DNA of 56,479 bases from a virus (lineage: Duplodnaviria > Caudoviricetes): positions 1-56,479 of the IMG/VR virus record IMGVR_UViG_3300035183_000127. One strand, written 5' to 3'. Numbering within the stretch: the first letter of the stretch is position 1; every line of letters begins with the position of its first letter. This document shows, piece by piece, positions 1-50,952 of the stretch. A program made the position numbers and the translations under genes. The notes beneath the pieces were generated by a model, which worked only from the letters and a program-made list of their open reading frames with translations, was not told where the DNA came from and made no database searches.

Positions 1-126
1 GACAGCAGTACACCAAGTGCTCCTTTTGCTACCGCTTCTGCACAGCACGCGTCCACGCCTGCAAGCTTGTTGGCATAGATTTCGTCGACGCTTCCTGCTG
101 GGAAGACGATCAGGTCGCCGCTACCG
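1..126. repeat. Terminal direct repeat copy 1 (circular assembly overlap)
   Basis: 1-126 is identical to 56354-56479, and a reading frame runs straight through the junction. Confidence 0.95.
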
Positions 127-514
127 GAGACGCGGGCGCATCTGTGGAAGTAGTCAGCCAGAGGCACTCCGGTTGGCTTCCGCTCGATCAGGAAATCGAC
201 GACCCCACGTAGCGAGGTGGTGCCGTGATGGTCAGATGACAGCAATATGCCAATGCCCGGCGAATCGAGGTCGAGATCGAGTACAACCACGCGTTCTCCG
301 GTGCGCGCCCGCTGGATCGCGAATGCCGCCAAGCATGTGCTGCACCCCAGCCCGCCCTTGAACGAGTAGAAGACTACTACAGGTGGACCATCTTCTGGAG
401 CAACCCAGATAGGCGCATCATCGTCTGTGAACCACCCGGTCCGCGTGCGATTGTGACTCAGCGTCCAATCGCAGGACATGCTCTTTATGGCATGGTAGTT
501 GATCCTGTCGATTA
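1..514 (-). pseudogene. N-terminal/central part of a degenerate ParA/MinD-family (KGGVGR-variant) ATPase spanning the origin
   Basis: Manual translation gives ...GPPVVVFYSFKGGLGCSTCLAAFAIQRARTGERVVVLDLDLDSPGIG...GVVDFL...LIVFPAG..., in frame with ORF 55840..56409; deviant Walker A at 336-359. Confidence 0.85.
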
Positions 515-717
515 TCGACGAGATGCTTCGCCTCCGCGATGGCATACTGGATCCTCCTGTGTATCGGTGCAGTCGACCTGTTGATCTCGACCGAGAGCGA
601 AACGTCCTCCAGCAGCGCCACAAGGACGCCGATCTGCCTACGAAGCTCGCTACAGGTTGGACACGTCGAGCGACCTTGCAACTTCGCCTGCCGCTGCGTA
701 CCACTCGAGTTTTTCAC
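515..717 (-). CDS. Small phage hypothetical protein (CPTC motif), 5' part; interrupted by the ATPase insert
   Basis: ORF 418..717; joining at TCGAC to 55833 restores ...KHLVEAWARWQKTTEP* with an ATGA overlap onto the next gene. Confidence 0.6.
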
Positions 718-3553: not shown

Positions 3554-4192
3554 CTACTGCACCTTTGCCCGCGGTGTGTGCCCAATCTCCTTCGCCTTGT
3601 CGGCGAGCTTCTGCCGCATACGTGCCCACAGTTCACGGTCGCCTGCGCCCTTGCATGCGAGGAATACGTACGACTTGGCCGACTCCCACTCGTCACCAGT
3701 CGTGACCCCTTCGACAGCGTCAGACAGTGCGGACTCGTCGACATGCTTTGACGGAGACGCTACGACGGCTGGCGTGTGCGCGTCAGCGTCATTGTCGCCC
3801 TCCGTTGGGATTGCGAATGTCTGGAGGGCGAAGTACTTGTAGGCGGCCGACATGGCTTTGTTGGTGGCCTTGTCGGCGGAATCCATCGCCTCACCGATGA
3901 ACGGGCCAGCGACGATCTCGCTGCCGTCCTCGTGGATGATGCGGTACTTGCCCTCGACCACGACGGAGAAGATGATGCCGCCATTCTTGGCAGCCTTCTC
4001 CGTGATTACGCGGTTCGAGTACGACGGCACGACGACCACCTTGTACTTCGCGTACAAGGACGACAGCGCATTCAGCACGTCGTCGATGCCGCGGAACATA
4101 TACCCCTGCTGCGTGTTCTTCCTCTGCTTGGAGATACCCTCTGACGAGAGTTCACCGATGATTGCCGCTACCGCGTTGATGACACCTGACAT
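3554..4192 (-). CDS. erf: ERF-family single-strand annealing recombinase
   Basis: GYMFRGIDDV, GEAMDSADKATNKAMSAAYKY, FAIPTEGDNDAD motifs. Confidence 0.9.
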   Translation of the reverse strand: MSGVINAVAAIIGELSSEGISKQRKNTQQGYMFRGIDDVLNALSSLYAKYKVVVVPSYSNRVITEKAAKNGGIIFSVVVEGKYRIIHEDGSEIVAGPFIGEAMDSADKATNKAMSAAYKYFALQTFAIPTEGDNDADAHTPAVVASPSKHVDESALSDAVEGVTTGDEWESAKSYVFLACKGAGDRELWARMRQKLADKAKEIGHTPRAKVQ

Positions 4193-4262
4193 CTTGCCCC
4201 CTTCGGTTGAGAACCCAGCCGCCACAGAGAGGTGCGGCGCCAGAATGCTACGTGTTGGACGG

Positions 4263-4271
4263 AGAATAGCA
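4263..4271 (-). promoter_or_regulatory. Extended -10 promoter for the recombination operon
   Basis: TG-C-TATTCT on the minus strand ~70 nt upstream of erf. Confidence 0.5.
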
Positions 4272-4354
4272 CGCCCGTTGACATGTGATAATAGATTTCG
4301 TTTCTGTTGCGTAAATACAACTACCGCATTCTTGGTATTGCGCTGAGAATTTTG

Positions 4355-4363
4355 TGGTATGCT
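4355..4363 (+). promoter_or_regulatory. Extended -10 promoter preceding the structured RNA/dnaB
   Basis: TG-G-TATGCT, 8 nt before the first helix at 4372. Confidence 0.6.
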
Positions 4364-4370
4364 CCGCTCC

Positions 4371-4750
4371 ACGTGGTCGGTGGGGTTCCCCCTAGCCGCC
4401 CCAGCTACGCAACGTAGCAACCGACCACGCCTCCACACTCTGGGGAAAGTGTGAGGCGCACTCCGCGCGTCAGCAGTGGGCTTGCATGGGCCGCCCGGAG
4501 CAGAACACCGACTCGACGCTACGGTCGTTAAACAATTCGCAGCGGGGTGCAACTCCCATACGACTGCGGGCTAGGCTGTATACCGTGCTGGCCGGGGAGC
4601 GTACGAGCGTTGCGTGCGCCGATACACGGTTCTACGAATGCGATCCCCTCTCCTACTCTCAACTTTTTGTTTGGGGGGTAGGGGGGGCTGTCCTGCGATC
4701 CCCATTATGGGGACAACGTAGCCACATGGGAGGGCGCAACCGCGCCCGGT
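4371..4750 (+). ncRNA. Candidate large structured RNA / RNA-based replication origin upstream of dnaB
   Basis: At least 9 helices plus 3 long-range loop pairings, a T-loop-like GGTGCAACTCC and a G6-TA-G7 tract; no credible CDS. Confidence 0.65.
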
Positions 4751-4763
4751 TAGGGAGATTTTC

Positions 4764-6089
4764 ATGACTTCTGATGCTACAAGGTCTATTGAGGCTGAAC
4801 AGGCACTACTTGGTTCTTTAATGCTGGATGGTGAATGTATCGACAGGGTAGAAGATGTTTCTGTTGAACATTTCTCTGTTGGTATTCACCGTCAGATTTA
4901 CTCTGCCATCATCTGGCTTTACGAGAATTCCAAGCCAACAGACATCGTGTCGGTCTTCGAGAGGCTTAGGGAGACTGGTCACGATGTCGAGATGCAGTAC
5001 CTGAATGACCTCGTTTCGTCCACACCAAGTTCTGCTGGTGTTGCCCGGTATGCAGAGGTCGTCAGGTCGAAGGCTCTTGAACGTGGTCTTGTAGCAGCAG
5101 GTTCGAGGATCATCGAGGTTGCTACGTCTGCCCTACCTACCGATGAGAAGCTCGACACAGCACAGTCCGAGATCGAGTCGGTTACGAGCAGGAGGGCACG
5201 CAGGGTTGCTAGGCACATCGGCGACATCGCAACCGAGTCCGTCAAGACGGTATCCGGCAGGTCTGAAGGGCGCGAGTCAGTCATACGTACAGGGATTGCT
5301 GCAGTCGACCGTGCCCTCTGTGGTGGACTCCGCAGGGGAAACCTTGTCATCGTTGCTGCCCGACCGTCTGTCGGGAAGACCGCGTTCGCACAGACCATCG
5401 GGATGTACGCTGCACGCGAACACTCGGTCATGATGCTTTCGATGGAGATGAGTTGCCGAGAGGTTGGCGACAGGGCCCTTGCACAGATCGGCAGCATCCC
5501 GCTGGACTGGATAATGTCGCCAGACCAGAACGACGAGTACTGGTCGCGCCTTGTTGATGCATCAGCCTTCTGCGGGCAGCTGAAGTTCTACGTCGACGAC
5601 CAGAGCGGCCTCTCGATCTTCGACGTCAAGACGAAGGCGAGGGCGCACAAGAGGAAGTCAGGACTCGACCTGTTGATCGTGGACTACCTGCAACTGATGG
5701 TCGGCAACCGAGAGAACCGGAACGCCGAGATCGAGGAGATCAGCCGAGGCCTGAAGGCGATTGCGAAGGAGCTTGACGTCGCCGTCGTAGCCCTGTCGCA
5801 GCTTAGTCGCAGGTGCGAGGAGCGTAACAACAAGAGGCCAACACTCTCCGACCTCCGTGACTCCGGAGCTATCGAGCAGGATGCAGACATCGTCATGATG
5901 CTGTACGCCGAGGAGCGCTACAATGACGACCCCGAGTGGAGGGGTATCCGTGAGCTTCTCATCGAGAAGAACAGGCAAGGCGGAGTGTGCTCCATACCAC
6001 TCATGTACATCGGCAACCTGACGAAGTTCGCACAGCTTCAAGGCGAACTCCCGAAGCGTCGTGGCAGGAGGGACGATGAATACTTCTGA
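4764..6089 (+). CDS. dnaB: Replicative DNA helicase, DnaB family
   Basis: EAEQALLG N-domain; AARPSVGKT, SMEM, VDYLQL, LSQLSR, DLRDSGAIEQDAD, KNRQG motifs. Confidence 0.98.
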   Translation: MTSDATRSIEAEQALLGSLMLDGECIDRVEDVSVEHFSVGIHRQIYSAIIWLYENSKPTDIVSVFERLRETGHDVEMQYLNDLVSSTPSSAGVARYAEVVRSKALERGLVAAGSRIIEVATSALPTDEKLDTAQSEIESVTSRRARRVARHIGDIATESVKTVSGRSEGRESVIRTGIAAVDRALCGGLRRGNLVIVAARPSVGKTAFAQTIGMYAAREHSVMMLSMEMSCREVGDRALAQIGSIPLDWIMSPDQNDEYWSRLVDASAFCGQLKFYVDDQSGLSIFDVKTKARAHKRKSGLDLLIVDYLQLMVGNRENRNAEIEEISRGLKAIAKELDVAVVALSQLSRRCEERNNKRPTLSDLRDSGAIEQDADIVMMLYAEERYNDDPEWRGIRELLIEKNRQGGVCSIPLMYIGNLTKFAQLQGELPKRRGRRDDEYF

Positions 6090-10069: not shown

Positions 10070-11047
10070 TCAGGAAACTGCCTCGACGAGGGCGTCGGCG
10101 GCGCGCGACTTGATCTCGTCACCCCTGCCGAACCACGCGGAGTCGAGGCGCGTGTCATTCCGCCCCATGACGTGGTCGACGTACCACGTAACGGAGTTAA
10201 GCAGACCCCACGCGGTGCCCTTCGCCTCAGGCGTCGTGGCCATCGGCTCATCACCGTCGAATAGCGCGAGGATCTTCTTGAACGACCGCGTCTCCTCGAT
10301 GGGCTTGTTGTTCGGGTGCGGCAAGACCTTGGCGAGGAAGTCCTTGGCGAAGGACCGGTCGACCTTGGACTCGGCAAGCAGGCGCGCGTTGATGAGAAAA
10401 CGATCCCACGCGTCATGCACGATGCCGAGCTTGCGGCGCACCTCGTCGATGTCGAGGTGCTCGTAGTGGTTGACCTTGACGCAGTCGACGACTGCGCCAT
10501 CCTTCTTCGACGCCTCCGCCACCGCCATGCGGAGCGTGTTGTTGCACACGACGCGGATCGAGGTGAACCGGAACGTCGACGCCATCGTGCCGTCGTACGA
10601 CGTGGCGGCGAGGATATACGGGCGGACAACGTCATGCCCGATCACTGGTGCCCCGTCGTTCACCCGGGCGAGGGCCCAGATTTTGCGGCCACCGAGCAGG
10701 GCCCCAGCGACCTCCATGCGGAACCCGGCGCGGTGGACCATGTCCCGCATGAACTGCAGGATCTGCCACGGTTGGACGACCTTGTAGTCGTCCGAGACGA
10801 TGGAGAGGAAGCCGCCCGTGTCGCTCCTGTAGAGCGCCACCCGGTTCGGTACGACCCTCATGTTGCCGCCGCTTACCGGCCCGTAGAAAACCTCGGAACT
10901 GAGGGCCGACCACGCGAGCCCAGCCTTGTGCCGCCAGACCTCGATTGGTGCGTCCGAGTCAATCTGAGCCCCGAACCGGTGCCACGGTTCGGCACCGGCG
11001 AATGCGATGGCGGGGCGGCTAGTCGTGAAATCCAGATCGTGTGCCAT
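10070..11047 (-). CDS. DUF932/DUF945 (LGT_TIGR03299-like) protein
   Basis: MAH...PWH..G, YKVVQP, GAL.GGRKIWALA, SYDGT...IRVVCNNTL, GTAWGLLN.VT.YVDH. Confidence 0.92.
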   Translation of the reverse strand: MAHDLDFTTSRPAIAFAGAEPWHRFGAQIDSDAPIEVWRHKAGLAWSALSSEVFYGPVSGGNMRVVPNRVALYRSDTGGFLSIVSDDYKVVQPWQILQFMRDMVHRAGFRMEVAGALLGGRKIWALARVNDGAPVIGHDVVRPYILAATSYDGTMASTFRFTSIRVVCNNTLRMAVAEASKKDGAVVDCVKVNHYEHLDIDEVRRKLGIVHDAWDRFLINARLLAESKVDRSFAKDFLAKVLPHPNNKPIEETRSFKKILALFDGDEPMATTPEAKGTAWGLLNSVTWYVDHVMGRNDTRLDSAWFGRGDEIKSRAADALVEAVS

Positions 11048-12872: not shown

Positions 12873-12947
12873 AGCGGGGTAGCTCAGGGGCAGAGCAGAC
12901 GGCTCATAACCGTCAGGTCGCGGGTTCGATTCCCGCCCCCGCAACCA
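12873..12947 (+). tRNA. tRNA-Met (CAT anticodon), initiator-like acceptor stem
   Basis: Full cloverleaf: GCGGGG/CCCCGC, GCTC/GAGC, GACGG-CTCATAA-CCGTC, GCGGG-TTCGATT-CCCGC, encoded CCA. Confidence 0.95.
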
Positions 12948-40047: not shown

Positions 40048-43000
40048 ATGGCAAAAACATTCTCCTCGTACGAAGAGTTCAGGGACGCCGTAAGGTCTGT
40101 TCCGGGCCAAGAGAACCTCCCTGAGAGGGACATCGCTGCCCGATGGATGCGCGACTACGACACGCTCACCGGCGCGCAGAACAAGGACGACGAGCCGGGA
40201 GCGTTCTCAAGGGGTTTCCAGCAGACCGTCGTTCAGCTTCCGATGCTGATCGGCGGAACGATCTTCGCAATCGGCGACAAGTATGACCTTGACTCGTGGA
40301 GGGAGTACGGGGCTGACCTGTACCAGCGGAAGTCCGACGAACTCGAGAAGCTGTCCAAAGAGACGGACTCGTTCACAAGGAACTGGGAGCAGGGTAACGC
40401 GCAAGATTGGCTTGAGTTCGCCAAGTATGGGCTCGGGTATACGGCTGGCCAAGCACTCCAATCAGTTGCTACCGGCGGCGTAGGCTCCATAATCGGAAAG
40501 ACTATCGCCAAGAAGGCCATCGAAGGCTTCATCGAGCGCAAGATCGCCGAGAAGGTTGCCTCCGGTATGGCACTCAAGGAGGCCGAGAAGTCGGTAGCGA
40601 GGGAGGCTGCGGCGGCAATGGCCGCCGGAAGGAACATCGGCGCAGCAACGGCCCTGCAGGGGTACAACTTCACTCAGGAACTGGGTGAAATCTACCCAGA
40701 GATGGTTCTCGAAGCCCAAAAGAATGGGCAAGAGATAACAGATGAAGACAGGAACAGGGCGTTCCTGTCTGCCGGTGCCGCAGCGGGCACTGAGACGCTA
40801 GCCGACATAGTCGGCCTAGGTCGGCTCATAAAGGGCGGGAGGGGTGGCTCTTTCCTAGGGAGGGTTGCGAGGGAAGTTCCTGCTGGTATGGCCCGCGAGG
40901 GGGCGCAAGAGTTCGTCCAGACCGGCATCGAGCGGTACGGCAAGGGGCAAGAGGTGTTCTCTCCAGAGGGGTGGAGGGAGATGATAGATGCCGCCGCCCT
41001 CGGAGCGGTCGGCGGTGCAGGCGGCGGCGCTATTGCATCTCTACGCAGTTCCAGCGAAATCTCCACGAAGGCGAGCGACTACGCGAAAGACTCCGTCCTG
41101 AAGGCTGCCATCGAGAAGATTCAGGACGCGCAGTCGACAGATGAGGTTCTGCAGGCAGCCGCTGCTGCGTCTTCGCTTAAAAGCGAAGCTGAGGCGCTTG
41201 ACAGTCAGCAGGCACCCGCCGTTCAGACTCAGCAGCCTCAGTTGGGTACTCAGTCTGAGCAGACTCTCGCTGCGCCTACGACCGACACGACTGAGGCCGC
41301 TCCGGGGCAACCTCTTGGTGCTCCTCCGACAGTCATGACGGAGGTCGCTCCGGGGCAACTTCAGCCTGAGATGTTGGCATCCAGAGAAGGAGTCCGCCCG
41401 CTCTTAACGACCGACATTGCAGGAACCCCAGCCGAACGCATCGAGGGCGCAAGGTTCGAGTCTCCGGAGGCTGCAGAGTCGGCAGCGAGGACGCTCGGCA
41501 CCAGTGAACAGAGGTTCGAGCCGTTCATGACGAAGACCGGTACGTTCGCAATCGAGCGTACCGACATGAAGGATGCAGCCGATCGTGTTTCCCGGTTCGT
41601 CTCCGAGGTGAACGCACAGATCGAGGATCTCAAGGCGAAAGGGAAGTATGCTGGAGAGTTGCAGTCCTTCGACGCCGTCCCTGTGCCTCACGAGATGGTT
41701 CCCGGCGGGTCAATCATCAGCGGCATCGGCAGGATCCTGAGGCGTAAGGTTCAGTTCTTCAGGCAGACCAAGGGTGACAAGACTGTCAACGGTGCCCTCG
41801 GCACAGACGGGACGATATTCGTCAACGTCAAGTCGAAGCACCCTCTGATGCAGGTGTTCTTCCACGAAGCTACACATGCGATGGAGAAGGACACACCGGA
41901 ACTGTACAAGGAGTTCCTGAAGGCGGTTGAACCGTTCATCCCGAAGGCGGAGCTTGATCGCACCAAGAGTACCTATGGCAACCTTGGTGACGCAGTCAAG
42001 GAGGCTGCCGCAAACGTTGCTGGCTCCGTAACCACGAACGAAGGCTTCTGGAAACACCTCGCCCAAAAGAGCCCAAACGGCTTCCGCGCATTCTCGCAGA
42101 AGCTGATGTCAATCCTGAACAGGGTACTTCAGGTTCTTCGCGGCCAAGGTACGCCTATGGCTCGCGTCGCCGAGAAGAAGGTGGCGGAGCTTGAGAAGAC
42201 TGTCGCCGAATACATCTCGCGCTACGAGTCTGTGTTGCGTGGGCGCGAGAAGTTGGCTGAGTACCAGAAGCAGGTCGCCGCGAAGAAGCAGGCGGCAGCC
42301 CAGACCCAGACTCCTGTTCAGAATCAGGAGGCAGTACAGAACCAGCAGTCTGAGCAGGCCAAAGAGCAGCAGAGCAAGTCTACTCAGGAAACTGAGCAAA
42401 CAACCGAAGCAACGAAGTCAACAGAGGAGACTGGCCAGCAAAAGGTTGAGCCGAAGAAGAAGCGGAAGGCCACCAACGTCGTCAGGAAAGCCGTCCCAAA
42501 ACTCTCCGTCGCAAGCGACGAGGAGGCAGAGAATACTCTTGACGAAATCCTCTCAGACCCCAAGAAGCTCGTTGAGGCGTCAGCCCGCGCATTTGGCGAC
42601 AGGCCGACGGAGCAGGATGTCATCTCGACCTTCAACCAGCTTAAGGATTACCGCAGGATCGTCACCGACGGCAGGAAGAGTGACGCCGATATGTCCGTCC
42701 TTGCGGACGCGATCAAGGCAGCATCCAAGGGAGAGAAGGTCAACGTCGAGCCTGCTCAGGAGTCTCCGTCATACAGCCTCGCCACGAAGGAGTCCTTCAC
42801 GAAGGACGGCATCAAGGAGTTGCCGAAGCTTCGTGGGTGGGCCGTCCTGACCGCCGAAGACCCGAACAACCAGAAGGCGTCCGACGAGTACAACAAGGCG
42901 GCGATGGAGTCTCTCAGGGCTTGGCTCAAGGCCGAGGGTGTCGACTACGTGGACGTCGTCGGAAAGTACGACACGATCCAGAACTCCGTCGCAGTCTTCG

Positions 43001-46000
43001 GCGACAAGGTGGACAACAAGTTCGCAGAGCGCGCCCGCAAGAAGTTCGAGCAGCAGAGCGTCCTCATCCCCGAGGGGCTACTGTACGAGAACGGAGTCCT
43101 CGACCCAGCTACCGGCGAGTCGTCCGCAGCGCCGGATGCAGACAACTACTACACGATCCTGCCGGACGGGACGAAGTGGCAGTACGGCATCGACTTCGAG
43201 AACAGGACTACACTCGACGAGTTCAGGAGCAACCCAAGGTTCTCGCTCTCTGAGGACGAGGAGGACGACGGCGTAGAGACGAAGGAGGAGAAGAAGCGCA
43301 TCTTCCGTGCCGCGCTGACCATCTCGTCCAAGCTCAAGTACAAGCCAATCGAGGAGTACTCTCCGGCTGCTGCGAGGCAGCTTGTCAAGCGCATCAGGAA
43401 GATCGTCGACGCAGAGTTGGCCACCGGGAAAGGTGCGGAGCATTGGTACCGTGACGACCTAGCTAGGGCGCTGTGGGCAGCGGCTGCAGCGTACCCTGAG
43501 ATCAAGACGAACCCTGAAGCTAGGGGCGCGTTCATTGCGGCTCTGGCGATCACAAGCAACGGCCTCTCAATCGACAAGAACGTAGCCGCAGCGATCAAGG
43601 TGTACGAAGGTTGGAAGGAGACCGGCGAGCTGCCACAGCTTGAGTTCGGCGTCAGGGGCAAGGTAATTGCCAGCAACCTCGGGATATACAACGCCATTGT
43701 CGGCGACCTTGGGTTCGAAGGCGCTCAAGAGTTCCTGTCGTCCAAGATGACGGTGAAGGAGGTGCTGATTTACGCCACAGGCGTCAAAGGCAGCATCCAG
43801 ATGCCGATGGGGATGGAGGTGTACGGCAGCGCAATCTTTGGACCCAAGATCGGCCACGGGTTCTATTCCAACCTGTCTGGCAGGCTGGATGCGCTGACTG
43901 GAGACAGGTGGTTCTGGAGGACGTGGGGGAGGATCACGAACACGCTCATCAGGAAGAAGGGGTCCGGCGAACAGGTGCTCGCCGAGAATAAGCTGAGGGC
44001 GTCTGAGCGAGAGTTTGCTCAGTACGTGATGGAGAAGGTAGTCGAAGAGTACCGCGCCGAAGGGAAAGACCTGACCGTTGCGGACGCTCAGGCTATCCTG
44101 TGGTATGCTGAGAAGAGGTTATACGACAGCTTAGGGGCCGCATATGAAAACGCCAAACCAACAAGCTACTCAATCGAAGTCGAACGTTGGCTCGACGCCA
44201 ATAAACCCGGTTGGAGAGCTAATGCAGGCCCGGAACCTAGAGGGGGACGAGCCCTTGGTGACCGGGTTCAAACCCGGGGGGCTCAAGAAGCTACTCGAAC
44301 TGATCAGGGCCCGGAAGAAGGAATCCCCTTCTCCCTCTCTGCCGGACCTTCAGAGCCTGCCGTTCGATCCGGCAGAGGGGGCCGACCGGACTCCGTAGAG
44401 GTCACCGGGATCCACTACGGCAGGGCCAAGGTTCCGGCCCTATCTGGTTCGTTCTTCGGGCGCGGCATCAAGGGTGAGGAGCAACGGAGGGTTGCTGCCT
44501 CTACCGACCCACGTATCAAGCGCCGCATCTACTTCTACATCGCCGAAGGGTCCGGCAGACCTCCAGTCCCGGAGGAGGGGCTCGGGCCGTGGGTCTACAG
44601 GACCAAGCTCGGCAACCTGTGGGAAGCTGGCGTCAGCCAGCCGCTGACGTACGACACCAAGTCGCGCGACGGGTGGCCTGTCAGCCAAGGCGAACTGCTG
44701 AACCGGTTCGAGTCTGCAGTCCTTGACGCAGGGTACGACGGCTACGTGAACCGCGAACGCGGCGTCGCCGTCGTCATGAACAAGGACGTCCCCGTAGAAC
44801 TCATCGGCAACCGCGCCGAGGGGCCTGTGAAGTTTTCCCTCTCCGGCGACACCATCGAGGTCGACGGGAAAGTCCGCCAGAGGCGCAACAGCGAAGGAAT
44901 GCTTATCCACCCGACGGAGGAAGGCATCAGGAACTTCTGGAAATGGTTCGGAGACAGCGTAGTCGTTGACGACGAGGGTCGCCCCATCGTCCTGTACCAC
45001 GGGACTACGTACGACTTCTACGAGTTCAAGTCTTCGAAGCTGAGCCCGTCGTCCAACATGGGCAAGGGGTTCTACCTATCGAACAACGTGGAGGACGTAA
45101 ACGAAAACTACGCCTCAGAGGAGGGTCCAGACCTCCGGATGAAGATTGACATCGCCCTCGACGATGAGGCGTACAAGAGGGGCGTCAACGTAGAAGACCT
45201 TCCGAAGAGCGTAGTCAGGAGGATAGAGAGCAGGTTTATCAAGCACGGCGGCGTAATCATGCCTGCGTACGTCAGGATGGTGAACCCTGCTGTCATTGGT
45301 GGGCCAGAAGAGACCGTCTTCTCGTCCGACCCGAACAGCAAGCTCAGTGTCAAGAGGCTTGTCCACAACATCATTGAAGCCTCCGGAAGATTCAGAACCA
45401 GCCCAAACCTGTACGGTGCCTTGACCTACCTCCTCCCGGTAGACAGGGACATCACTCTGTCTGAGGTGACGAGGACTCTGTTCAACAGCGGCGACTACAG
45501 GTACGTGTTCGACAGGAACGGCAGCCCGGTACCCGGGGAGGTTCTGAGGCTTGCACTCCAGAAGATGGGGTTCGACGGCGTCGTCGACCACACCGTCTCT
45601 GAAAAATTCCTTGCTATGGCTGGCGTCAGCGGAGGCACGACGCACTACATCGCCTTCAAGCCTGAGCAGATCAAGTCGGCCACAGGTAACGTCGGCACGT
45701 TCAATCCTGCTGACCGCCGGATCGTGTTCTCGCTCGATGGCGCAGACGAGGAGATCGAGGCCGCGCCAGCACCAGAAGACACCTCGATAACCGTCTCCGA
45801 GAATCAGTCACAGAAGATCGGGGAAGACGTCGAGGGATACAGGAAGGCTGCCAACCTCGACAGGGGTAAGGCTGTGCTTCAGGCCGCTGGCCGCAGGTGG
45901 CTCGAAATAGCTGGCAACCGGGCCATATTTTCGTATGGCGACTCCTTCGAGACGACGCTCGACGGCGTCCTGAAGGACATGGGTGGAGACAAGGTCAAGT

Positions 46001-49000
46001 TCGTGTCCGAGCGCGACCCAGACGAGAAGGAGAAGTCCATCTACAGGGCGTACGACCTCCCTGTGCAGAAGGTATACGTTCTGGACGCTGGCGGCAAGAG
46101 GGTCCACGTCTACGAGACCTCCGACAACAAAGTCATCGCAAACCTGTCGCTCGTCGACAGGAACAAAGGTGTCGGCTCAGTCGTCTACCAAGCCGTCGGG
46201 ACGTGGGCGTACAACAGCGGCAAGAAGTTCCTCGGCGACCCGGTAGCCCTCTCCACGAGGGCCCTGTTCCGCCGCACCATCGCCATGCTCTCCAACGCCC
46301 TCCGAGTCGGGTCGACGTCACACCTTATCCCGCACCGCGACCAGTTGGCTGCCGGGCTAACGTGGGAGAAGGGTGACGACGAGTACAACATCGGGTCGAT
46401 GGCGGCGTGGGTTCGTGACACGCTCGCCATGTATGCGCCGCAGACGTACGACCCTGAGTTCGACCCGAAGAACCCGTACAGGCACCTTGGCGCATTCCGT
46501 CCGTCTGCTGGCGTCGACCAAGCCACGGCGGCTGGCGGAGAGAAAACTAGGGCACAGACGTCGATCACAGACACGATTCTGAAGGACGCCGAGGTTTCTG
46601 CGGCAGACACTCCAGCCGTTCTGTACTCGCTCGACGATTCTCCCTTCTACTCTGAGCTTCTGAAGAGGGTTCAGGAGACGCCGACGAAGGTTGCCCCTCC
46701 GTCTGGGTGGAAGTCGTTCCTCAACAGCCTCGTCAACAAGGGGCTGGCGAAGAAGGACGAGATCGAGTGGAGCGGCATCAACGAGTGGCTCGACATGCAG
46801 GGGACAAAGATCACGAAGGACGAAGTCATCGGCTACCTTGCAAACAACGGCGTCAATGTCGGCGAGGTCATCAAGACAGACGAAGACGAAACTGCCTACC
46901 GCGAATACAGGGTTGGTCCGTTCAAGCGCTCCGGGAAGAACTACACCGAGCTTGTGCTTAAGCTGCATTCACGGCCATCGAAATACGCAGAAGAAGAGTT
47001 CTTCTACGGAAACCAGAAACATAGCCCCGAAGAGAAAGTAAAGCATGCCATCGCCAACATTGGTGGCGAACACAGGTACCTGAACTACTTTATCAACAAT
47101 CCGCACTGGGGATACAGGAACGTTCTGGCGCACGTCAGGTTCGACTCATTGTACGGCGGTGGACCGTATGGCCTTAAACGGATACTGCACGTGTTCGAGG
47201 TCCAGTCAGACTGGGCGCAGCTTGGCCGCAAGCGTGGGATGTCTGACGTCGACAAGATGGACCTCAGCTTCGTCGACGAGGATTTCAGGAAGGCAAGAGA
47301 AAGGTACGAGGTCACCAAAGACTACCACAAGGACGACTTCGGCGACTGGGCCAATATGGCCACAAAGTGGCATACATTCCATGAATCGATTGCCAGCAAG
47401 ATTTCGAAAGAAGATTTCGATCTGCTGGAGCGCTTCTTCTCTGATGAAGGCGAAAGAGTCGTCAAGGCTGAAGAGAAGGACAGGGTAATCAAGGCGCTCA
47501 TGGATGCATCGCACGCACAATACAGGGCAAACCTCTCGTTGGTGCCGACGTCGATATTGTCGACTTACTACCTCCGCGACAAGGAGGCAGATAGAACAGT
47601 AGTTCGTGGAAACGACATAAAAGACATTGAGAACGAGGTTGAAGATATCGCCAAAGAAGCAGCCATCAGGCGCGCGCGCGAAAATGGGTTCTTAAGTGAA
47701 CTGCCTGCAGCCCCATTCGTCTCGCGCAAGTTTGGCGACAAATTCACGTCTGATACCGAGTCGTGGGTTTCTCTTGCTCTAAAGAGGATCCTTGTCTACG
47801 CCGCAAGAAACGGGTACGACATCGTTGGCATCTCGAACGGCAAGAGGGTGGCCAACATCTACAACTTTGACCGCCGCGTCAAATCAATAACCGTAGACAG
47901 GTTGTCAGGGGATAACGAACACACTATTTGGTACGAGACAAAGAAAGGAGAGAGGAACAGGGTTCATGGGTTCATTTCGCGCGACGAGCTTGAGAACTAC
48001 ATCGGCAAGGAGCTTGCCGAAAGGGCGCTCGCAAGACTGGACTCCGGCGAAAAGTCTGTGGAGTTCAAGGGTGACGACCTGAAGATAGAGAACAATGGTC
48101 TGGTCAGGTTCTACGACGAAGTCGTCCCGAACATCCTCCGCAGGGTGGTGAAGAAGTTCGGTGCTGGTGAGGTGAAGACCGGGAAGGTCGACCTCAACGT
48201 GAACTTCCACGGAGACACACGGTTCTCCGGTACGTACGTCGAGATCACGCCAGAGCTTAAGCAGAAGCTGTCCGGCGGAGCGCCACTCTTCTCGATCTCC
48301 GAAGGAAAGATAGACATCGACCTCAACGGCCTCCGCGCCGCGATCAACGACCGCCTCCGTGACGGCAAGAAGTTCGGGTGGTGGGACCGCACCGTCGGGA
48401 CCGACTACCACAAGGCATCGAAGGATGCCGACTTCAAGCGCACGTTCGACCTGACGCAGAAGTTCCTAAACGACGTCAGCGGAATCGCGTCACGCGTTGC
48501 TGACCAAGCTCCACTCATCCTCCCCAAGATGAAGCACTGGACCGACGCGTTCCGTGGCGCGAAGGACGACTTCACCGGGAAGAAGAAGAGCGACCTAGTC
48601 GCCGTCTCCCACGCTATCTTCGCTGGGACTCTCGCTGGCGAGACGCCGATGGACGGGAAGGTCTGGACGGACAAAGAGTTGCGTGAGATGGGCCTGAACG
48701 ACAGGCAGATCGAAATGTACCGCCAGACGCGCAGGGCCATCGACGCCTCCCTAGACCAGCTTGCGACGAGCGAGATGGTGCGTATCACGTCCAACATGGG
48801 GATCGACGACGCCCGCGAGGCCGTCAGGGAGCTTCCTCCGCAGGCTGCCGCCGAGTGGCTGATCGGGGCTCTTGATTCGTCGGACGCCGTCTCTGACGAC
48901 ATCAAGGAGCAGGTCGCCAAGATTCTGCGAGAGAAGGCCTCCCGCGTCGAGATGATGAAGGCGAAGGGGTACGCGCCTCTGATGCGGTTCGGCGAGTATG

Positions 49001-50952
49001 CGCTCGAATTCGAAGTCGACGGCGAGTACAACTTCATGCTCTTCGAGAGCAACGCGGAGCGCATGCGCGTTGCGCGCGAGATGGCTGCGGCTGGCGCTAC
49101 GAACATCCGCACCAGCATCATGTCGCGCCGTGGGTACGAACTGTTCCGTGGCCTCGACATGAACTCCCTCGAAGTCTTCGGAGACATCGCCGACCTCGAC
49201 TACGTCGACGAGAAGGGTAACGTCGTCACTATGAGGCTTGGGGACGACGAACTGTTCCAAGCGTTCGTCAAGGCTGCGACATCCAACCGGTCGACCCTCC
49301 GCAGACTCATCAAGCGGAAAGGTATCCCCGGGTACGACACTGATATCCAGCGCGTTCTGGCGAGCTTCATCACCAGCAACGCGCGGATGTCGTCCGCAAA
49401 CTACAACATGAAGGACATGGTCGAGTCTGCGGCGTCCATCGACAAGATGAAGGGGGACGTCCGCGACGAGGCGATCAAGCTCGTGAACTACGTCAGGGAT
49501 CCGAAGGAGGAGTCGTCGAAGATCAGGGGCCTCCTGTTTGCCGACTACCTCGGCGGCTCCGTTGCTTCGGCGGCGGTGAACCTGACGCAGGTTCCGATGA
49601 TGTCGTACATCTACCTGTCGCAGTGGGGCTTCTCTAGGGCGGCCTCGGAACTGAAGGGCGCTATGAAGGTTGCCCTGTCGAAGAGGGAGCCGAGCGGAGA
49701 ACTCGGCGCTGCTCTGAAGCAGGCGTCAGAAGAAGGCATCGTCGAGCCGCACGAGATCCACATGCTGTATGCGGAGGCGTCGAGAAACTTCGGATCTGAC
49801 ATGAGGGTCCGCAGGTTCATGACGGTGTGGGGGTCGATGTTCTCGGCGGCTGAGGCGTTCAACAGGCGCACGACGTTCGTGGCTGCATACAACATCGGGT
49901 CACAACTTACGGATGACCAGCTTCGTGAAGCTGGAGTCGAGTCGGCGTACGACTTCGCTGTCAAGGCCGTACACGAGACGCAGGGCATCTACAACAAGGG
50001 CAACAGGCCAAACTGGGCGCGCGGCCCGATTGGTGCTCCGCTGTTTACGTTCAAGCAGTACTCGATCATGTACCTTGAGCTGCTGAGGAGGCTTCCGAGG
50101 CCGCAGCAGCTTGCGATGCTCGGGATGCTCGTCCTGATGTCTGGCCTCAGCGGCCTACCGTTCGCCGACGACATTGACGACCTGATCGACACGATTGGCC
50201 AGTGGCTCGGGCACAACACCCACATGAAGCTGTGGAAGCAGAAGGTTCTGACTGACATGCTCGGGAAGGATGTTGCTAGGTTCGTCCTATTCGGCGCATC
50301 CGCCATCCCCGGCGTGCCTCTCGACGTTCAGGGTAGGCTGTCGATGGGGAACCTGATCCCGGCGTCAGACATCCTGAAACTCAGCAACACGGACCGGCTG
50401 AAGTCTGCGGTCGAGGTCGCTGGCGCCCCCGGAGGGTTCGTGCAACAGGTTCTCAGGGGAGTCAGCGCTGTTGGGTCAGGCGGGATTTCGGAGGGTGTTA
50501 AGGAGTTCGCTCCTGTTGCCGTCAAGAACTTCCTGCAGGGCGTCGACATGCTCCAGACCGGCATGTACCGCGACTACCTTGGGAGGCAGGTCGTCAAGAC
50601 TGACACTTACAACGCCATCGCAAAAATCATCGGGTTCCAGCCGTCGGTGGTTGCTGAGGAGTCAAGAAGGAGCCGCGCAGTTCAGGAGATGGTCACCCTC
50701 GTACGGGAACGCGAAAGCGAGATCGCGCACAAGTGGGCCGAGGGAATGTTCATGCATGACAACGGCATGGTCCGGGAGGCGATGGACGAGCTTAGGTCGT
50801 GGAACGAAAGGAACCCGGACTTGAGGATCAGGATAACGCCGGAGCAGATCAGGAGGCGTGTCAAGGAGATGTCGCTCACGCGCGAACAACGTGTCGCCAA
50901 GTCTGCGCCGAAAGAGATCAGGTCAACCGTCCGTCGGGAGCTTGGGCTGTGA
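40048..50952 (+). CDS. Giant polyvalent ejected protein (HExxH peptidase, two ART-like domains, GNAT-like domain, PLxRFG domain)
   Basis: HEATH at 41863; FWKWFGDS.VVD..G.P.VLYHGT...GFYLS; EVQSDW; GYAPLMRFG at ~48967. Confidence 0.88.
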   Translation: MAKTFSSYEEFRDAVRSVPGQENLPERDIAARWMRDYDTLTGAQNKDDEPGAFSRGFQQTVVQLPMLIGGTIFAIGDKYDLDSWREYGADLYQRKSDELEKLSKETDSFTRNWEQGNAQDWLEFAKYGLGYTAGQALQSVATGGVGSIIGKTIAKKAIEGFIERKIAEKVASGMALKEAEKSVAREAAAAMAAGRNIGAATALQGYNFTQELGEIYPEMVLEAQKNGQEITDEDRNRAFLSAGAAAGTETLADIVGLGRLIKGGRGGSFLGRVAREVPAGMAREGAQEFVQTGIERYGKGQEVFSPEGWREMIDAAALGAVGGAGGGAIASLRSSSEISTKASDYAKDSVLKAAIEKIQDAQSTDEVLQAAAAASSLKSEAEALDSQQAPAVQTQQPQLGTQSEQTLAAPTTDTTEAAPGQPLGAPPTVMTEVAPGQLQPEMLASREGVRPLLTTDIAGTPAERIEGARFESPEAAESAARTLGTSEQRFEPFMTKTGTFAIERTDMKDAADRVSRFVSEVNAQIEDLKAKGKYAGELQSFDAVPVPHEMVPGGSIISGIGRILRRKVQFFRQTKGDKTVNGALGTDGTIFVNVKSKHPLMQVFFHEATHAMEKDTPELYKEFLKAVEPFIPKAELDRTKSTYGNLGDAVKEAAANVAGSVTTNEGFWKHLAQKSPNGFRAFSQKLMSILNRVLQVLRGQGTPMARVAEKKVAELEKTVAEYISRYESVLRGREKLAEYQKQVAAKKQAAAQTQTPVQNQEAVQNQQSEQAKEQQSKSTQETEQTTEATKSTEETGQQKVEPKKKRKATNVVRKAVPKLSVASDEEAENTLDEILSDPKKLVEASARAFGDRPTEQDVISTFNQLKDYRRIVTDGRKSDADMSVLADAIKAASKGEKVNVEPAQESPSYSLATKESFTKDGIKELPKLRGWAVLTAEDPNNQKASDEYNKAAMESLRAWLKAEGVDYVDVVGKYDTIQNSVAVFGDKVDNKFAERARKKFEQQSVLIPEGLLYENGVLDPATGESSAAPDADNYYTILPDGTKWQYGIDFENRTTLDEFRSNPRFSLSEDEEDDGVETKEEKKRIFRAALTISSKLKYKPIEEYSPAAARQLVKRIRKIVDAELATGKGAEHWYRDDLARALWAAAAAYPEIKTNPEARGAFIAALAITSNGLSIDKNVAAAIKVYEGWKETGELPQLEFGVRGKVIASNLGIYNAIVGDLGFEGAQEFLSSKMTVKEVLIYATGVKGSIQMPMGMEVYGSAIFGPKIGHGFYSNLSGRLDALTGDRWFWRTWGRITNTLIRKKGSGEQVLAENKLRASEREFAQYVMEKVVEEYRAEGKDLTVADAQAILWYAEKRLYDSLGAAYENAKPTSYSIEVERWLDANKPGWRANAGPEPRGGRALGDRVQTRGAQEATRTDQGPEEGIPFSLSAGPSEPAVRSGRGGRPDSVEVTGIHYGRAKVPALSGSFFGRGIKGEEQRRVAASTDPRIKRRIYFYIAEGSGRPPVPEEGLGPWVYRTKLGNLWEAGVSQPLTYDTKSRDGWPVSQGELLNRFESAVLDAGYDGYVNRERGVAVVMNKDVPVELIGNRAEGPVKFSLSGDTIEVDGKVRQRRNSEGMLIHPTEEGIRNFWKWFGDSVVVDDEGRPIVLYHGTTYDFYEFKSSKLSPSSNMGKGFYLSNNVEDVNENYASEEGPDLRMKIDIALDDEAYKRGVNVEDLPKSVVRRIESRFIKHGGVIMPAYVRMVNPAVIGGPEETVFSSDPNSKLSVKRLVHNIIEASGRFRTSPNLYGALTYLLPVDRDITLSEVTRTLFNSGDYRYVFDRNGSPVPGEVLRLALQKMGFDGVVDHTVSEKFLAMAGVSGGTTHYIAFKPEQIKSATGNVGTFNPADRRIVFSLDGADEEIEAAPAPEDTSITVSENQSQKIGEDVEGYRKAANLDRGKAVLQAAGRRWLEIAGNRAIFSYGDSFETTLDGVLKDMGGDKVKFVSERDPDEKEKSIYRAYDLPVQKVYVLDAGGKRVHVYETSDNKVIANLSLVDRNKGVGSVVYQAVGTWAYNSGKKFLGDPVALSTRALFRRTIAMLSNALRVGSTSHLIPHRDQLAAGLTWEKGDDEYNIGSMAAWVRDTLAMYAPQTYDPEFDPKNPYRHLGAFRPSAGVDQATAAGGEKTRAQTSITDTILKDAEVSAADTPAVLYSLDDSPFYSELLKRVQETPTKVAPPSGWKSFLNSLVNKGLAKKDEIEWSGINEWLDMQGTKITKDEVIGYLANNGVNVGEVIKTDEDETAYREYRVGPFKRSGKNYTELVLKLHSRPSKYAEEEFFYGNQKHSPEEKVKHAIANIGGEHRYLNYFINNPHWGYRNVLAHVRFDSLYGGGPYGLKRILHVFEVQSDWAQLGRKRGMSDVDKMDLSFVDEDFRKARERYEVTKDYHKDDFGDWANMATKWHTFHESIASKISKEDFDLLERFFSDEGERVVKAEEKDRVIKALMDASHAQYRANLSLVPTSILSTYYLRDKEADRTVVRGNDIKDIENEVEDIAKEAAIRRARENGFLSELPAAPFVSRKFGDKFTSDTESWVSLALKRILVYAARNGYDIVGISNGKRVANIYNFDRRVKSITVDRLSGDNEHTIWYETKKGERNRVHGFISRDELENYIGKELAERALARLDSGEKSVEFKGDDLKIENNGLVRFYDEVVPNILRRVVKKFGAGEVKTGKVDLNVNFHGDTRFSGTYVEITPELKQKLSGGAPLFSISEGKIDIDLNGLRAAINDRLRDGKKFGWWDRTVGTDYHKASKDADFKRTFDLTQKFLNDVSGIASRVADQAPLILPKMKHWTDAFRGAKDDFTGKKKSDLVAVSHAIFAGTLAGETPMDGKVWTDKELREMGLNDRQIEMYRQTRRAIDASLDQLATSEMVRITSNMGIDDAREAVRELPPQAAAEWLIGALDSSDAVSDDIKEQVAKILREKASRVEMMKAKGYAPLMRFGEYALEFEVDGEYNFMLFESNAERMRVAREMAAAGATNIRTSIMSRRGYELFRGLDMNSLEVFGDIADLDYVDEKGNVVTMRLGDDELFQAFVKAATSNRSTLRRLIKRKGIPGYDTDIQRVLASFITSNARMSSANYNMKDMVESAASIDKMKGDVRDEAIKLVNYVRDPKEESSKIRGLLFADYLGGSVASAAVNLTQVPMMSYIYLSQWGFSRAASELKGAMKVALSKREPSGELGAALKQASEEGIVEPHEIHMLYAEASRNFGSDMRVRRFMTVWGSMFSAAEAFNRRTTFVAAYNIGSQLTDDQLREAGVESAYDFAVKAVHETQGIYNKGNRPNWARGPIGAPLFTFKQYSIMYLELLRRLPRPQQLAMLGMLVLMSGLSGLPFADDIDDLIDTIGQWLGHNTHMKLWKQKVLTDMLGKDVARFVLFGASAIPGVPLDVQGRLSMGNLIPASDILKLSNTDRLKSAVEVAGAPGGFVQQVLRGVSAVGSGGISEGVKEFAPVAVKNFLQGVDMLQTGMYRDYLGRQVVKTDTYNAIAKIIGFQPSVVAEESRRSRAVQEMVTLVRERESEIAHKWAEGMFMHDNGMVREAMDELRSWNERNPDLRIRITPEQIRRRVKEMSLTREQRVAKSAPKEIRSTVRRELGL

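What the first reader, a model, noticed from the sequence alone, without database searches (positions are those of the whole stretch)
4371..4750. Candidate novel ~380-nt multi-pseudoknot RNA directly upstream of dnaB
Seen in the sequence: an extended -10 box (4355-63), then a perfect 10-bp helix CGTGGTCGGT(4372-81)/ACCGACCACG(4420-29) enclosing two hairpins (GGGG 4382-85/CCCC 4399-4402; GCTACG-CAA-CGTAGC 4404-18). Further helices are CACACT/AGTGTG (4434-53), CTCCG/CGGAG (4461-4500), ACCG/CGGT (4507-25), CGCAG/CTGCG (4538-68, enclosing T-loop-like GGTGCAACTCC), ACCGTG/CACGGT (4582-4630) and GCGTACG/CGTGCGC (4599-4619). The loops are also mutually complementary. TTCCC(4386-90) pairs with loop GGGAA(4443-47); the adjacent CCTAGCC(4391-97) pairs with GGCTAGG(4569-75); and loop CGACGCT(4514-20) pairs with loop AGCGTTG(4606-12, one G-U). 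Three long-range loop pairings plus G-U wobbles that only work on the + strand suggest a compact folded RNA. It does not match any RNA family I recognise (not tRNA, tmRNA, RNase P, group I/II intron, hammerhead or HDV). Inference: it is a new structured RNA class linked to phage replication.
Basis: partly seen in the sequence, partly recalled or inferred. Interest (0 to 1): 0.92.

Follow-up and report, generated by a model that had tools for sequence, protein, structure and literature searches.

The report
Uncatalogued structured RNA family in phages
The spacer upstream of this phage's dnaB gene encodes a real folded RNA that is an outlying member of a large phage RNA family missing from the standard RNA catalogue, and its function is still unknown.

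Summary
The + strand folds better than shuffles (z -2.6 alone; -3.9 for the 3-sequence consensus) and the - strand does not. ORF 4486-4767 is broken by indels in relatives. No Rfam 15 family matches.

Motif scans of IMG/VR found a family of at least 102 distinct copies. They share a T-loop-like hairpin, GCCGRGG, and GGGGUAGGGGGG paired to a C/U-rich strand. Rfam matched nothing but tRNAs and weak off-element hits in 21 member loci.

A covariance model built without the window clade hits window 4536-4698 (+) at 32 bits, E 1e-6. Family covariation is strong: 95.9% paired against 83.3% shuffled, and 251 against 56 double changes.

It does not confirm the three proposed pseudoknots. A different one (4569-71 with 4591-93, crossing H8) is supported.

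Neighbouring genes vary, so the link to replication is weak.

Best guess at function: a cis-acting leader switch. Identity confidence is about 0.9; mechanism about 0.4.

The parts
4355..4363 (+). Extended -10-like box TGGTATGCT. A start near 4370 is inferred, not shown.
   Evidence: Sequence verified. L004 changes only the spacer base G4357A. One metagenome variant, C4362A, gives TATGAT. The simple promoter scan listed no + strand site.
4372..4453 (+). Clade-specific 5' domain: H1 (10 bp) enclosing H2 and H3, then hairpin H4.
   Evidence: Complementarity verified. It is in the MFE and the consensus fold. G4383A and C4401T occur at the same depth in X1 and fit one listed contig, which is compensatory in H2. 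Model R1 found no counterpart outside the clade at E below 1.
4457..4510 (+).
   Evidence: It resembles the main-type consensus CCGUACUCCgcACG...GCgcGGAAG.aAA. It is 74.5% identical over 106 nt to L201. This homology was judged by eye and by BLAST, not by a model.
4507..4525 (+). Hairpin H6 (ACCG/CGGT).
   Evidence: Complementarity verified. The GA to AG change in its loop in L002 and L003 is neutral. No family-level test was made.
4538..4568 (+).
   Evidence: The stem changes with both strands in L198, L200, L201, L202 and L203. Loop positions 1 and 5 are U..A in 29 members and G..G in 73 of 102, never mixed. The closing pair is GC 59, CG 9, GU 6, AU 2.
4569..4575 (+). Junction motif GGCUAGG (family consensus CGGCUGG). 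Bases 4569-4571 pair with 4591-4593.
   Evidence: L004 carries G4570T together with C4592A. In the family the helix is paired in 98.3% of cells. It crosses P2, which makes an H-type pseudoknot.
4582..4630 (+).
   Evidence: 89 of 101 members have a perfect 6-bp partner, against a mean of 23.5 (maximum 35) in 200 strand-swap controls, with 27 distinct 5' strands. All 6 pairs show changes on both sides.
4591..4597 (+). Conserved motif M2, GCCGGGG (family consensus GCCGRGG).
   Evidence: It recurs 29-37 nt after the T-loop-like hairpin in every member examined.
4599..4619 (+).
   Evidence: A hairpin of at least 4 bp follows M2 in 102 of 102 members, with 42 distinct stems. L004 has G4605A with C4613T. 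An alternative local pairing, 4598 with 4611, is also compensated.
4639..4648 (+). Repeat X, UGCGAUCCCC, just 5' of and overlapping the C/U strand.
   Evidence: An identical 10-mer recurs at 4694-4703. The family-wide X/X' identity averages 7.18 nt, against 5.25 when members are permuted (maximum 5.56).
4645..4687 (+). P5: C/U-rich strand (4645-4659) paired with motif M3, GGGGGGUAGGGGGGG (4673-4687), with many G-U pairs.
   Evidence: 12 or 13 of 13 positions pair in 87 of 102 members. There are 49 distinct C/U strands, and only C/U changes occur opposite fixed G. The G-U pairs exist only on the + strand.
4694..4703 (+). Repeat X', UGCGAUCCCC. It is also the 5' strand of a hairpin (4699-4713).
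   Evidence: C4703T and A4704G keep the pairing as G-U.
4693..4747 (+). Clade-specific 3' hairpins: 4693-4721 and GGGCGC-AACC-GCGCCC at 4732-4747.
   Evidence: The consensus fold. G4733A with C4746T is compensatory in L004, and C4717T gives G-U. A metagenome variant keeps the terminal stem with another loop. No terminator-like site was found.
4752..6089 (+). Shine-Dalgarno GGGAGA (4752-4757) and dnaB (4764-6089), the first gene downstream.
   Evidence: ORF list. Pfam DnaB and DnaB_C.

Best explanation
Window 4371-4750 is the structured, untranslated 5' part of the rightward early transcript that runs into dnaB.

Its core, about 4457-4705, is a divergent member of a large phage RNA family that is not in Rfam. 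The family's parts, in order, are:
- a T-loop-like hairpin closed by P1;
- an H-type pseudoknot (CGGC/GCCG crossing P2);
- hairpins P3 and P4;
- a G-U-rich helix between a C/U strand and an invariant GGGGUAGGGGGG strand;
- a co-varying direct repeat (X and X') flanking that helix.

Most likely mechanism (inferred): the folded sensor part decides which of two mutually exclusive pairings forms at the 3' end. X and X' would compete for the same partner, and the C/U strand looks like an anti-Shine-Dalgarno. This would tune translation or read-through of the downstream genes in cis.

Shown here: the fold, the family, and co-orientation with downstream genes. Inferred: the transcript start, the switch, and any ligand or factor.

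Identity as a real family member: about 0.9. The cis-switch mechanism: about 0.4.
For: Strand-specific folding signal.

The ORF is not conserved.

Compensatory or wobble-preserving changes in close relatives and metagenome variants: 4383/4401, 4570/4592, 4605/4613, 4733/4746, 4703, 4717.

The family was recovered with three independent pairs of motifs:
- 11 of 15 hits to the first two motifs also carried the third.
- 102 distinct copies in all.

A model built without the window clade gives window 4536-4698 at 32.3 bits, E 9.6e-7, the only hit in the 56 kb window. The same model gives 0 hits in 1.17 Mb of other loci.

Covariation: 95.9% paired against 83.3% shuffled, 251 against 56.5 double-change cells, and at most 63.5% paired when partners are slid. 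On an alignment not fitted to the model the result is weaker but still exceeds all shuffles.

Evidence for action in cis:
- The longest ORF in the 1.5 kb downstream is on the same strand in 29 members, opposite in 8 and unclear in 16 of 53.
- The median gap to the next ORF is 59 nt.
- A terminator-like hairpin follows in 9 of 65.
- In the window there is no terminator before dnaB.

The X/X' words are mostly Shine-Dalgarno-like: GGGTGAA 32, GGAGGAA 8, and CGAGGAA and its extended variants.

MFE folds of 7 members pair the 3' tail with the U-rich 5' leader in several, for example L242, L244, L246 and L249.
Against: No RNA data were available, so the transcript and its ends are unproven.

Downstream genes are functionally heterogeneous, which is unusual for a metabolite riboswitch.

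Leader-tail complementarity barely exceeds the permuted control: 8.1 against 7.72, maximum 8.08.

In the window X' is not Shine-Dalgarno-like, and the dnaB ribosome site lies 50 nt further on.

Eight members face an opposite-strand gene, and some are flanked by terminator-like hairpins. That fits a stand-alone RNA gene.

The window clade scores far below typical members (27-33 bits against 100-162). It lacks a clear P4, and the model mis-registers its P2.
Confidence: 0.45

Rival explanations
1. It is a stand-alone, trans-acting structured RNA. It would be a large 'ornate' phage RNA or a decoy or scaffold for a host or phage factor, made from its own unit or cut out of the early transcript.
For: The element is large and complex, and its sequence motifs are kept across phages with unrelated neighbours. 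Terminator-like hairpins precede it in 18 of 64 members and follow it in 9 of 65. The downstream gene is on the opposite strand in 8 of 53. Predicted pairing of the 5' leader with the 3' tail would close it as one compact domain.
Against: It is mostly co-oriented with the next ORF and lies close to it: 29 same strand against 8 opposite, with a median gap of 59 nt. In the window no terminator separates it from dnaB.
Confidence: 0.3
2. It is a processive antitermination RNA at the head of the early operon, working like the put RNAs of phage HK022 (recalled). The nascent fold would bind the RNA polymerase and let it read through downstream terminators.
For: In the window it begins right after a promoter-like box at the divergence of the leftward and rightward operons. 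No N-, Cro- or Q-like gene lies between the promoter and dnaB. Heterogeneous downstream genes are expected for such an element.
Against: It is three to five times larger than put RNAs (recalled size). Many members lie inside same-strand gene runs rather than next to a promoter. No downstream terminators were mapped.
Confidence: 0.1
3. It is an origin-of-replication transcript. The G-rich 3' strand would form a persistent RNA-DNA hybrid that primes DNA synthesis, as in ColE1 RNA II or the mitochondrial CSBII primer (recalled). The upstream fold would gate hybrid formation.
For: In the window it occupies the place where the relatives KL4 and Raharianne carry an O-like initiator gene directly before dnaB. 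No such gene was found in the window (none among the ORFs scanned). Some members precede gp4-like primase-helicases or other helicases. Cumulative GC skew has its minimum at this spacer. The motif GGGGGUAGGGGGG(N)UUUGGGUGGAA resembles the CSBII RNA as I recall it.
Against: Most members are not next to replication genes. The G strand is paired inside the RNA to a partner that varies only between C and U. The skew minimum coincides with the switch in gene orientation, so it says little. The CSBII likeness is from memory and was not tested.
Confidence: 0.1
4. It is not an RNA element. It would be a DNA-level feature (operators, iterons, single-strand initiation hairpins) or a chance structure in a GC-rich spacer.
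For: The X/X' direct repeats, alike within a phage and different between phages, resemble iterons. The spacer also carries divergent promoters.
Against: Pairing relies on G-U pairs that exist on one strand only. The - strand shows no folding signal. There is family-wide compensatory change in four helices.
Confidence: 0.04

Closest known systems
Riboswitch and T-box style 5' leaders with an expression platform of competing strands (recalled)
   Same: A structured sensor with a T-loop motif and a pseudoknot. It is followed by mutually exclusive pairings that involve Shine-Dalgarno-like and pyrimidine-rich strands, or in some members by a terminator-like hairpin. It is co-oriented with the downstream gene and lies close to it.
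   Different: No Rfam riboswitch or T-box model matches. Downstream genes share no pathway. No ligand is known, and the switch itself is inferred.
GOLLD and ROOL large ornate RNAs of phages and prophages (PMC12286853; only the search listing and the start of the abstract were seen)
   Same: Large, intricately folded, phage-associated RNAs of unknown function, found by comparative genomics. In at least one member locus (L236) tRNA genes lie close by.
   Different: No sequence or model match to either Rfam family. This element is smaller (about 250-400 nt). Nothing is known about whether it oligomerises.
HK022 put antiterminator RNAs (recalled)
   Same: A cis-acting structured RNA at the start of a lambdoid-type early operon, in a phage region with no protein antiterminator gene.
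   Different: This element is much larger, with different motifs. No functional data exist, and many members are not next to a promoter.
ColE1 RNA II and the mitochondrial CSBII primer transcript (recalled)
   Same: A long folded transcript with a G-rich segment, next to replication genes in the window. It sits where relatives carry an initiator gene.
   Different: The G strand is base-paired within the RNA. Most family members are not in replication modules. No antisense partner or RNase H site is known.
ssNA-helicase motif upstream of helicase genes (recalled as an Rfam family)
   Same: A conserved non-coding structure upstream of helicase genes in mobile elements.
   Different: No Rfam family other than tRNA reached threshold in the window or in 21 member loci. 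The present element is far larger.

Membership tests
Phage RNA family defined here (T-loop hairpin / GCCGRGG / GGGGUAGGGGGG) | A significant score against a covariance model built without the window clade. | tested here: met
   Model R3 was built from 52 members and excluded the window, L003 and L004. Window 4536-4698 (+) scores 32.3 bits, E 9.6e-7, and is the only hit in the window. This is weak beside typical members at 100-162 bits.
Phage RNA family defined here | A T-loop-like 7-nt loop on a G/C stem, closed by helix P1. | tested here: met
   Bases 4544-4557, GGGG-UGCAACU-CCC, inside CGCAG/CTGCG. This loop variant is shared with 15 of 102 members.
Phage RNA family defined here | Junction CGGCUGG pairing with GCCG of M2, crossing P2 (a pseudoknot). 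| tested here: met
   The window has GGCUAGG and GCCGGGG, with 3 of the 4 pairs possible. L004 carries G4570T with C4592A.
Phage RNA family defined here | P2 enclosing M2 and hairpin P3. | tested here: met
   ACCGTG/CACGGT and GCGTACG/CGTGCGC.
Phage RNA family defined here | Hairpin P4 between P2 and the C/U strand. | tested here: inconclusive
   Window 4631-4644 has no clear hairpin, and the model aligns this part with low confidence.
Phage RNA family defined here | A C/U strand paired to GGGGUAGGGGGG, flanked by the direct repeat X/X'. | tested here: met
   CCTCTCCTACTCT pairs with GGGGTAGGGGGGG. The 10-nt repeat lies at 4639-4648 and 4694-4703.
Any Rfam 15 family (including tRNA, tmRNA, RNase P, T-box, riboswitches, GOLLD, ROOL) | A score at the family's gathering threshold, or any E-value of 10 or less, in 4150-4800. 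| tested here: not met
   Only a tRNA at 12873-12944 reached a gathering threshold. In the spacer there were two chance-level hits, E 1 and 5.2. ARAGORN found no tRNA or tmRNA in 4150-4850.
Protein-coding gene (ORF 4486-4767) | Reading frame kept in relatives and a recognisable protein family. | tested here: not met
   The frame is broken in L003 and shifted in L004. There was no Pfam match for the 7 spacer ORFs scanned (6 of 31 aa or more plus the erf frame's upstream extension) at E up to 10.
ColE1 RNA II-type or CSBII-type primer transcript | A persistent RNA-DNA hybrid at the G-rich segment and an RNA-to-DNA transition. | not testable with these tools
   This needs mapping of replication intermediates.
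put-type antiterminator RNA | Terminator read-through conferred in cis. | not testable with these tools
   This needs transcription assays.

The most novel reading that the evidence does not exclude
The family is a phage pre-primer or origin transcript. A sensor fold would gate whether the invariant G-rich strand stays paired in the RNA or invades the template to start replication. In this phage it would replace the O-like initiator protein that its relatives encode before dnaB. That would be a phage counterpart of ColE1 RNA II and of the mitochondrial CSBII primer.
Probability: 0.08. Interest if true: 0.95.

Novelty: categorically new. Interest (0 to 1): 0.82.

Why it matters
At least 102 distinct copies of a 250-400 nt RNA turned up in uncultured phages from one capped scan. 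The RNA has a T-loop, a pseudoknot and an unusual G-U-rich purine/pyrimidine helix. It has no entry in Rfam 15, and I found no paper describing it.

If it is a switch, it is a new class of phage gene control with an unknown signal. If it is a stand-alone RNA, it joins the few large phage RNAs whose roles are open. In either case the family alignment now makes structure probing, cryo-EM and reporter tests possible.

The co-varying direct repeat around the helix is a feature that I cannot explain by ordinary base pairing.

Tried and rejected
Expression: no RNA holder was listed for the stretch. The only runs were two DNA microbial-mat metagenomes kept as contigs. They gave sequence variants only.

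Close relatives:
- blastn of the spacer against cultured phages found nothing.
- A typical member gave only a 54-nt partial hit.
- The DnaB scan of metagenome contigs gave nothing above 41% identity.

Homologues near related genes:
- nhmmer with the clade alignment over 195 loci (1.1 Mb) found only the clade itself.
- Models R1 (4369-4462) and R2 (4636-4752) found nothing at E below 1 in 186 other loci.

Bacterial genomes: the scan with the window-type T-loop plus M2 gave 85 stretches. None carried M3 and none matched R3, so they are chance hits. The commoner T-loop variants were not scanned there, so absence from prophages is not shown.

Decayed initiator gene: tblastn with the O-like, Cro-like and CII-like proteins of KL4 and Raharianne found nothing in the spacer.

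Virion RNA polymerase with hairpin promoters: the 3634-aa protein is a polyvalent protein (LPD37, ART-PolyVal), not an RNA polymerase.

P1 test: a 5-bp partner was found in 91 of 100 members, against a control mean of 67.9 (maximum 78). This is only weakly discriminating.

Leader-tail covariation is marginal.

Literature: three searches and passages from three papers gave no description of this motif. The supplementary tables of PMC10690425, which lists over ten thousand phage RNA candidates, could not be seen and may list it as an unnamed cluster.

Full report
**Observation.** The 380-nt + strand folds to -173.9 kcal/mol, z -2.62, with 0 of 100 dinucleotide shuffles as good. The - strand gives z -1.54, with 7 of 100 as good. 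A consensus fold of the three distinct clade sequences gives z -3.9 on + (0 of 200 column shuffles) and -1.5 on - (15 of 200).

**Setting.** The window is an IMG/VR virus record of 56,479 bp with a 126-bp terminal repeat. The 570-bp spacer 4194-4763 separates two sets of genes:
- Leftward: erf, a YqaJ-type exonuclease and SSB.
- Rightward: dnaB, a dNMP kinase, NinB, lysis and terminase genes.

The nearest cultured DnaB relatives are Burkholderia phage KL4 (45%) and Ralstonia phages (42%). They carry an O-like initiator gene directly before dnaB. No such gene was detected in the window (none among the ORFs scanned). None of the 7 spacer ORFs scanned has a Pfam match. ORF 4486-4767 is broken in L003 and frame-shifted in L004.

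**Close relatives.** Only three IMG/VR contigs are close (DnaB 94-98% identical), and two of them are identical in the spacer. Together with variants seen in two metagenome runs, they show changes that keep pairing:
- G4383A with C4401T (H2).
- G4570T with C4592A.
- G4605A with C4613T (H9).
- G4733A with C4746T (terminal hairpin).
- Wobble-preserving C4703T, A4704G and C4717T.

The wobble-preserving changes work only on the + strand.

**The family.** An 18-mer from the T-loop-like hairpin occurs exactly in five unrelated IMG/VR contigs. There the closing stem differs on both strands and two further motifs recur. Three scans, each using a different pair of motifs, recovered one another's members:
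- T-loop plus GCCGRGGG: 15 stretches, of which 11 also carry GGGGTAGGGGG.
- T-loop plus GGGGTAGGGGG: 20 stretches.

In all, 134 candidate sites reduced to 115 distinct sequences. Of these, 102 carry a T-loop-like hairpin and 13 do not. Rfam gave only tRNAs and weak hits away from the element in 21 member loci, 10 of them searched at lenient E-values.

**Architecture and covariation.**
- *T-loop-like hairpin.* Loop positions 1 and 5 are U..A in 29 members and G..G in 73 of 102, never mixed.
- *P2.* A perfect 6-bp partner is present in 89 of 101 members, against a mean of 23.5 (maximum 35) when the 5' strand is taken from another member. There are 27 distinct strands.
- *P3.* It is present in 102 of 102 members, with 42 distinct stems.
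- *P5.* 12 or 13 of 13 positions pair in 87 of 102 members. There are 49 distinct C/U strands opposite an invariant G strand.
- *MAFFT alignment of 54 members.* The named pairs are 91.8% paired against 87.9% shuffled (0 of 500 shuffles as high), and at most 67% when partners are slid.
- *Model-fitted alignment of 76 distinct rows.* This alignment leans towards the structure. The pairs are 95.9% against 83.3% paired, with 251 against 56.5 double-change cells, a covariation score of 0.408 against 0.171, and at most 63.5% paired when slid. All 6 pairs of P2 and all 3 pairs modelled for P4 show changes on both sides.

**An unexplained feature.** The word just before the C/U strand is repeated 4-5 nt after the G strand in 83 of 93 members. 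The shared word averages 7.18 nt, against 5.25 when members are permuted (maximum 5.56). In the window it is UGCGAUCCCC, at 4639-4648 and 4694-4703.

**Membership of the window.** A covariance model built from 52 members, without the window clade, hits window 4536-4698 (+) at 32.3 bits, E 9.6e-7, and nowhere else in the window. It finds nothing in 581 kb around other DnaB and Erf genes, nor in 590 kb of bacterial control loci. It matches 86 of 100 sources in a set made of the window, L004 and the loci from the motif scans. The window clade is among the weakest members: it lacks a clear P4, and the model mis-registers its P2. The segment 4457-4510 resembles the family's 5' part. H1-H4 (4372-4453) and the 3' hairpins (4693-4747) are specific to the clade.

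H7, H8 and H9 are the family helices P1, P2 and P3. PK2 is contradicted by L004, and the partner of 4570 is 4592 instead. PK3 is not conserved, and PK1 is untested. A pseudoknot does exist, but it is a different one.

**Function.** A census of 108 ORFs downstream of 66 representatives gives:

| Pfam family | ORFs |
|---|---|
| 2OG-Fe(II) oxygenase | 9 |
| DnaB_C (3 of them gp4-like primase-helicases) | 5 |
| Large terminase | 3-4 |
| Small terminase | 2 |
| RecT | 2 |
| YqaJ | 2 |
| DNA methylases | 2 |

Most of the remaining ORFs have no match. The element is co-oriented with the next ORF in 29 members, opposite in 8 and unclear in 16 of 53. The median gap is 59 nt. Terminator-like hairpins follow in 9 of 65 members and precede in 18 of 64.

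I therefore favour a cis-acting leader switch. A stand-alone RNA, an antiterminator and a primer transcript are rivals. The leader-tail helix is predicted in several members but is only marginally supported statistically.

**Novelty and limits.** There is no Rfam 15 family for this element. No paper emerged from three searches and passages of three papers. Supplements that may list it could not be read. No expression data exist. Hosts are unknown. The motif scans fix the three motifs by construction, so more divergent members are missing.

Noticed in passing
window 40048-50952 (+): A 3634-aa ORF with LPD37 and ART-PolyVal domains. It is a large 'polyvalent' protein with an ADP-ribosyltransferase module, at the end of the structural genes.
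   Followed up: partly
window 4639-4648 and 4694-4703; family-wide in L198-L340: A direct repeat flanks the C/U-G helix. It is identical within each phage and differs between phages. Ordinary base pairing does not explain it.
   Followed up: partly
e.g. L249, L291, L244, L246, L318 (about 110-230 nt upstream of the T-loop hairpin): A second conserved structured segment lies upstream: a long hairpin closed by CCGUUAG.../...CUAACGG and followed by a U-run. It is either a terminator of the preceding unit or a 5' domain of the same RNA. Rfam has no match.
   Followed up: partly
L225, L229, L235, L236, L237, L264, L267: In a subgroup the small hairpin beside the T-loop hairpin is replaced by an insertion of about 100-150 nt with a long stem (GUGAUUGAUGAUGG.../...CCAUCAUCAUCAAUCAC).
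   Followed up: no
window 12873-12944 (+); L236 8315-8466; L212: tRNA genes occur in the window and in some member loci. In L236 two tRNAs lie about 400 nt upstream of the RNA.
   Followed up: no
window 3-704 (-) and 10070-11047 (-): A weak ParA-like P-loop protein, below Pfam's cut-off, runs to the low-coordinate end of the record. There is also a DUF932 protein. The ParA-like gene could hint at a plasmid-like lifestyle.
   Followed up: no
window 4196-4290 (- strand leader of erf): The leftward leader has a hairpin (GCCGCCAC...GUGGCGGC) that is a better stem in L002 and L003 than in the window. A sigma-70-like site lies at 4315-4288 on the - strand.
   Followed up: no
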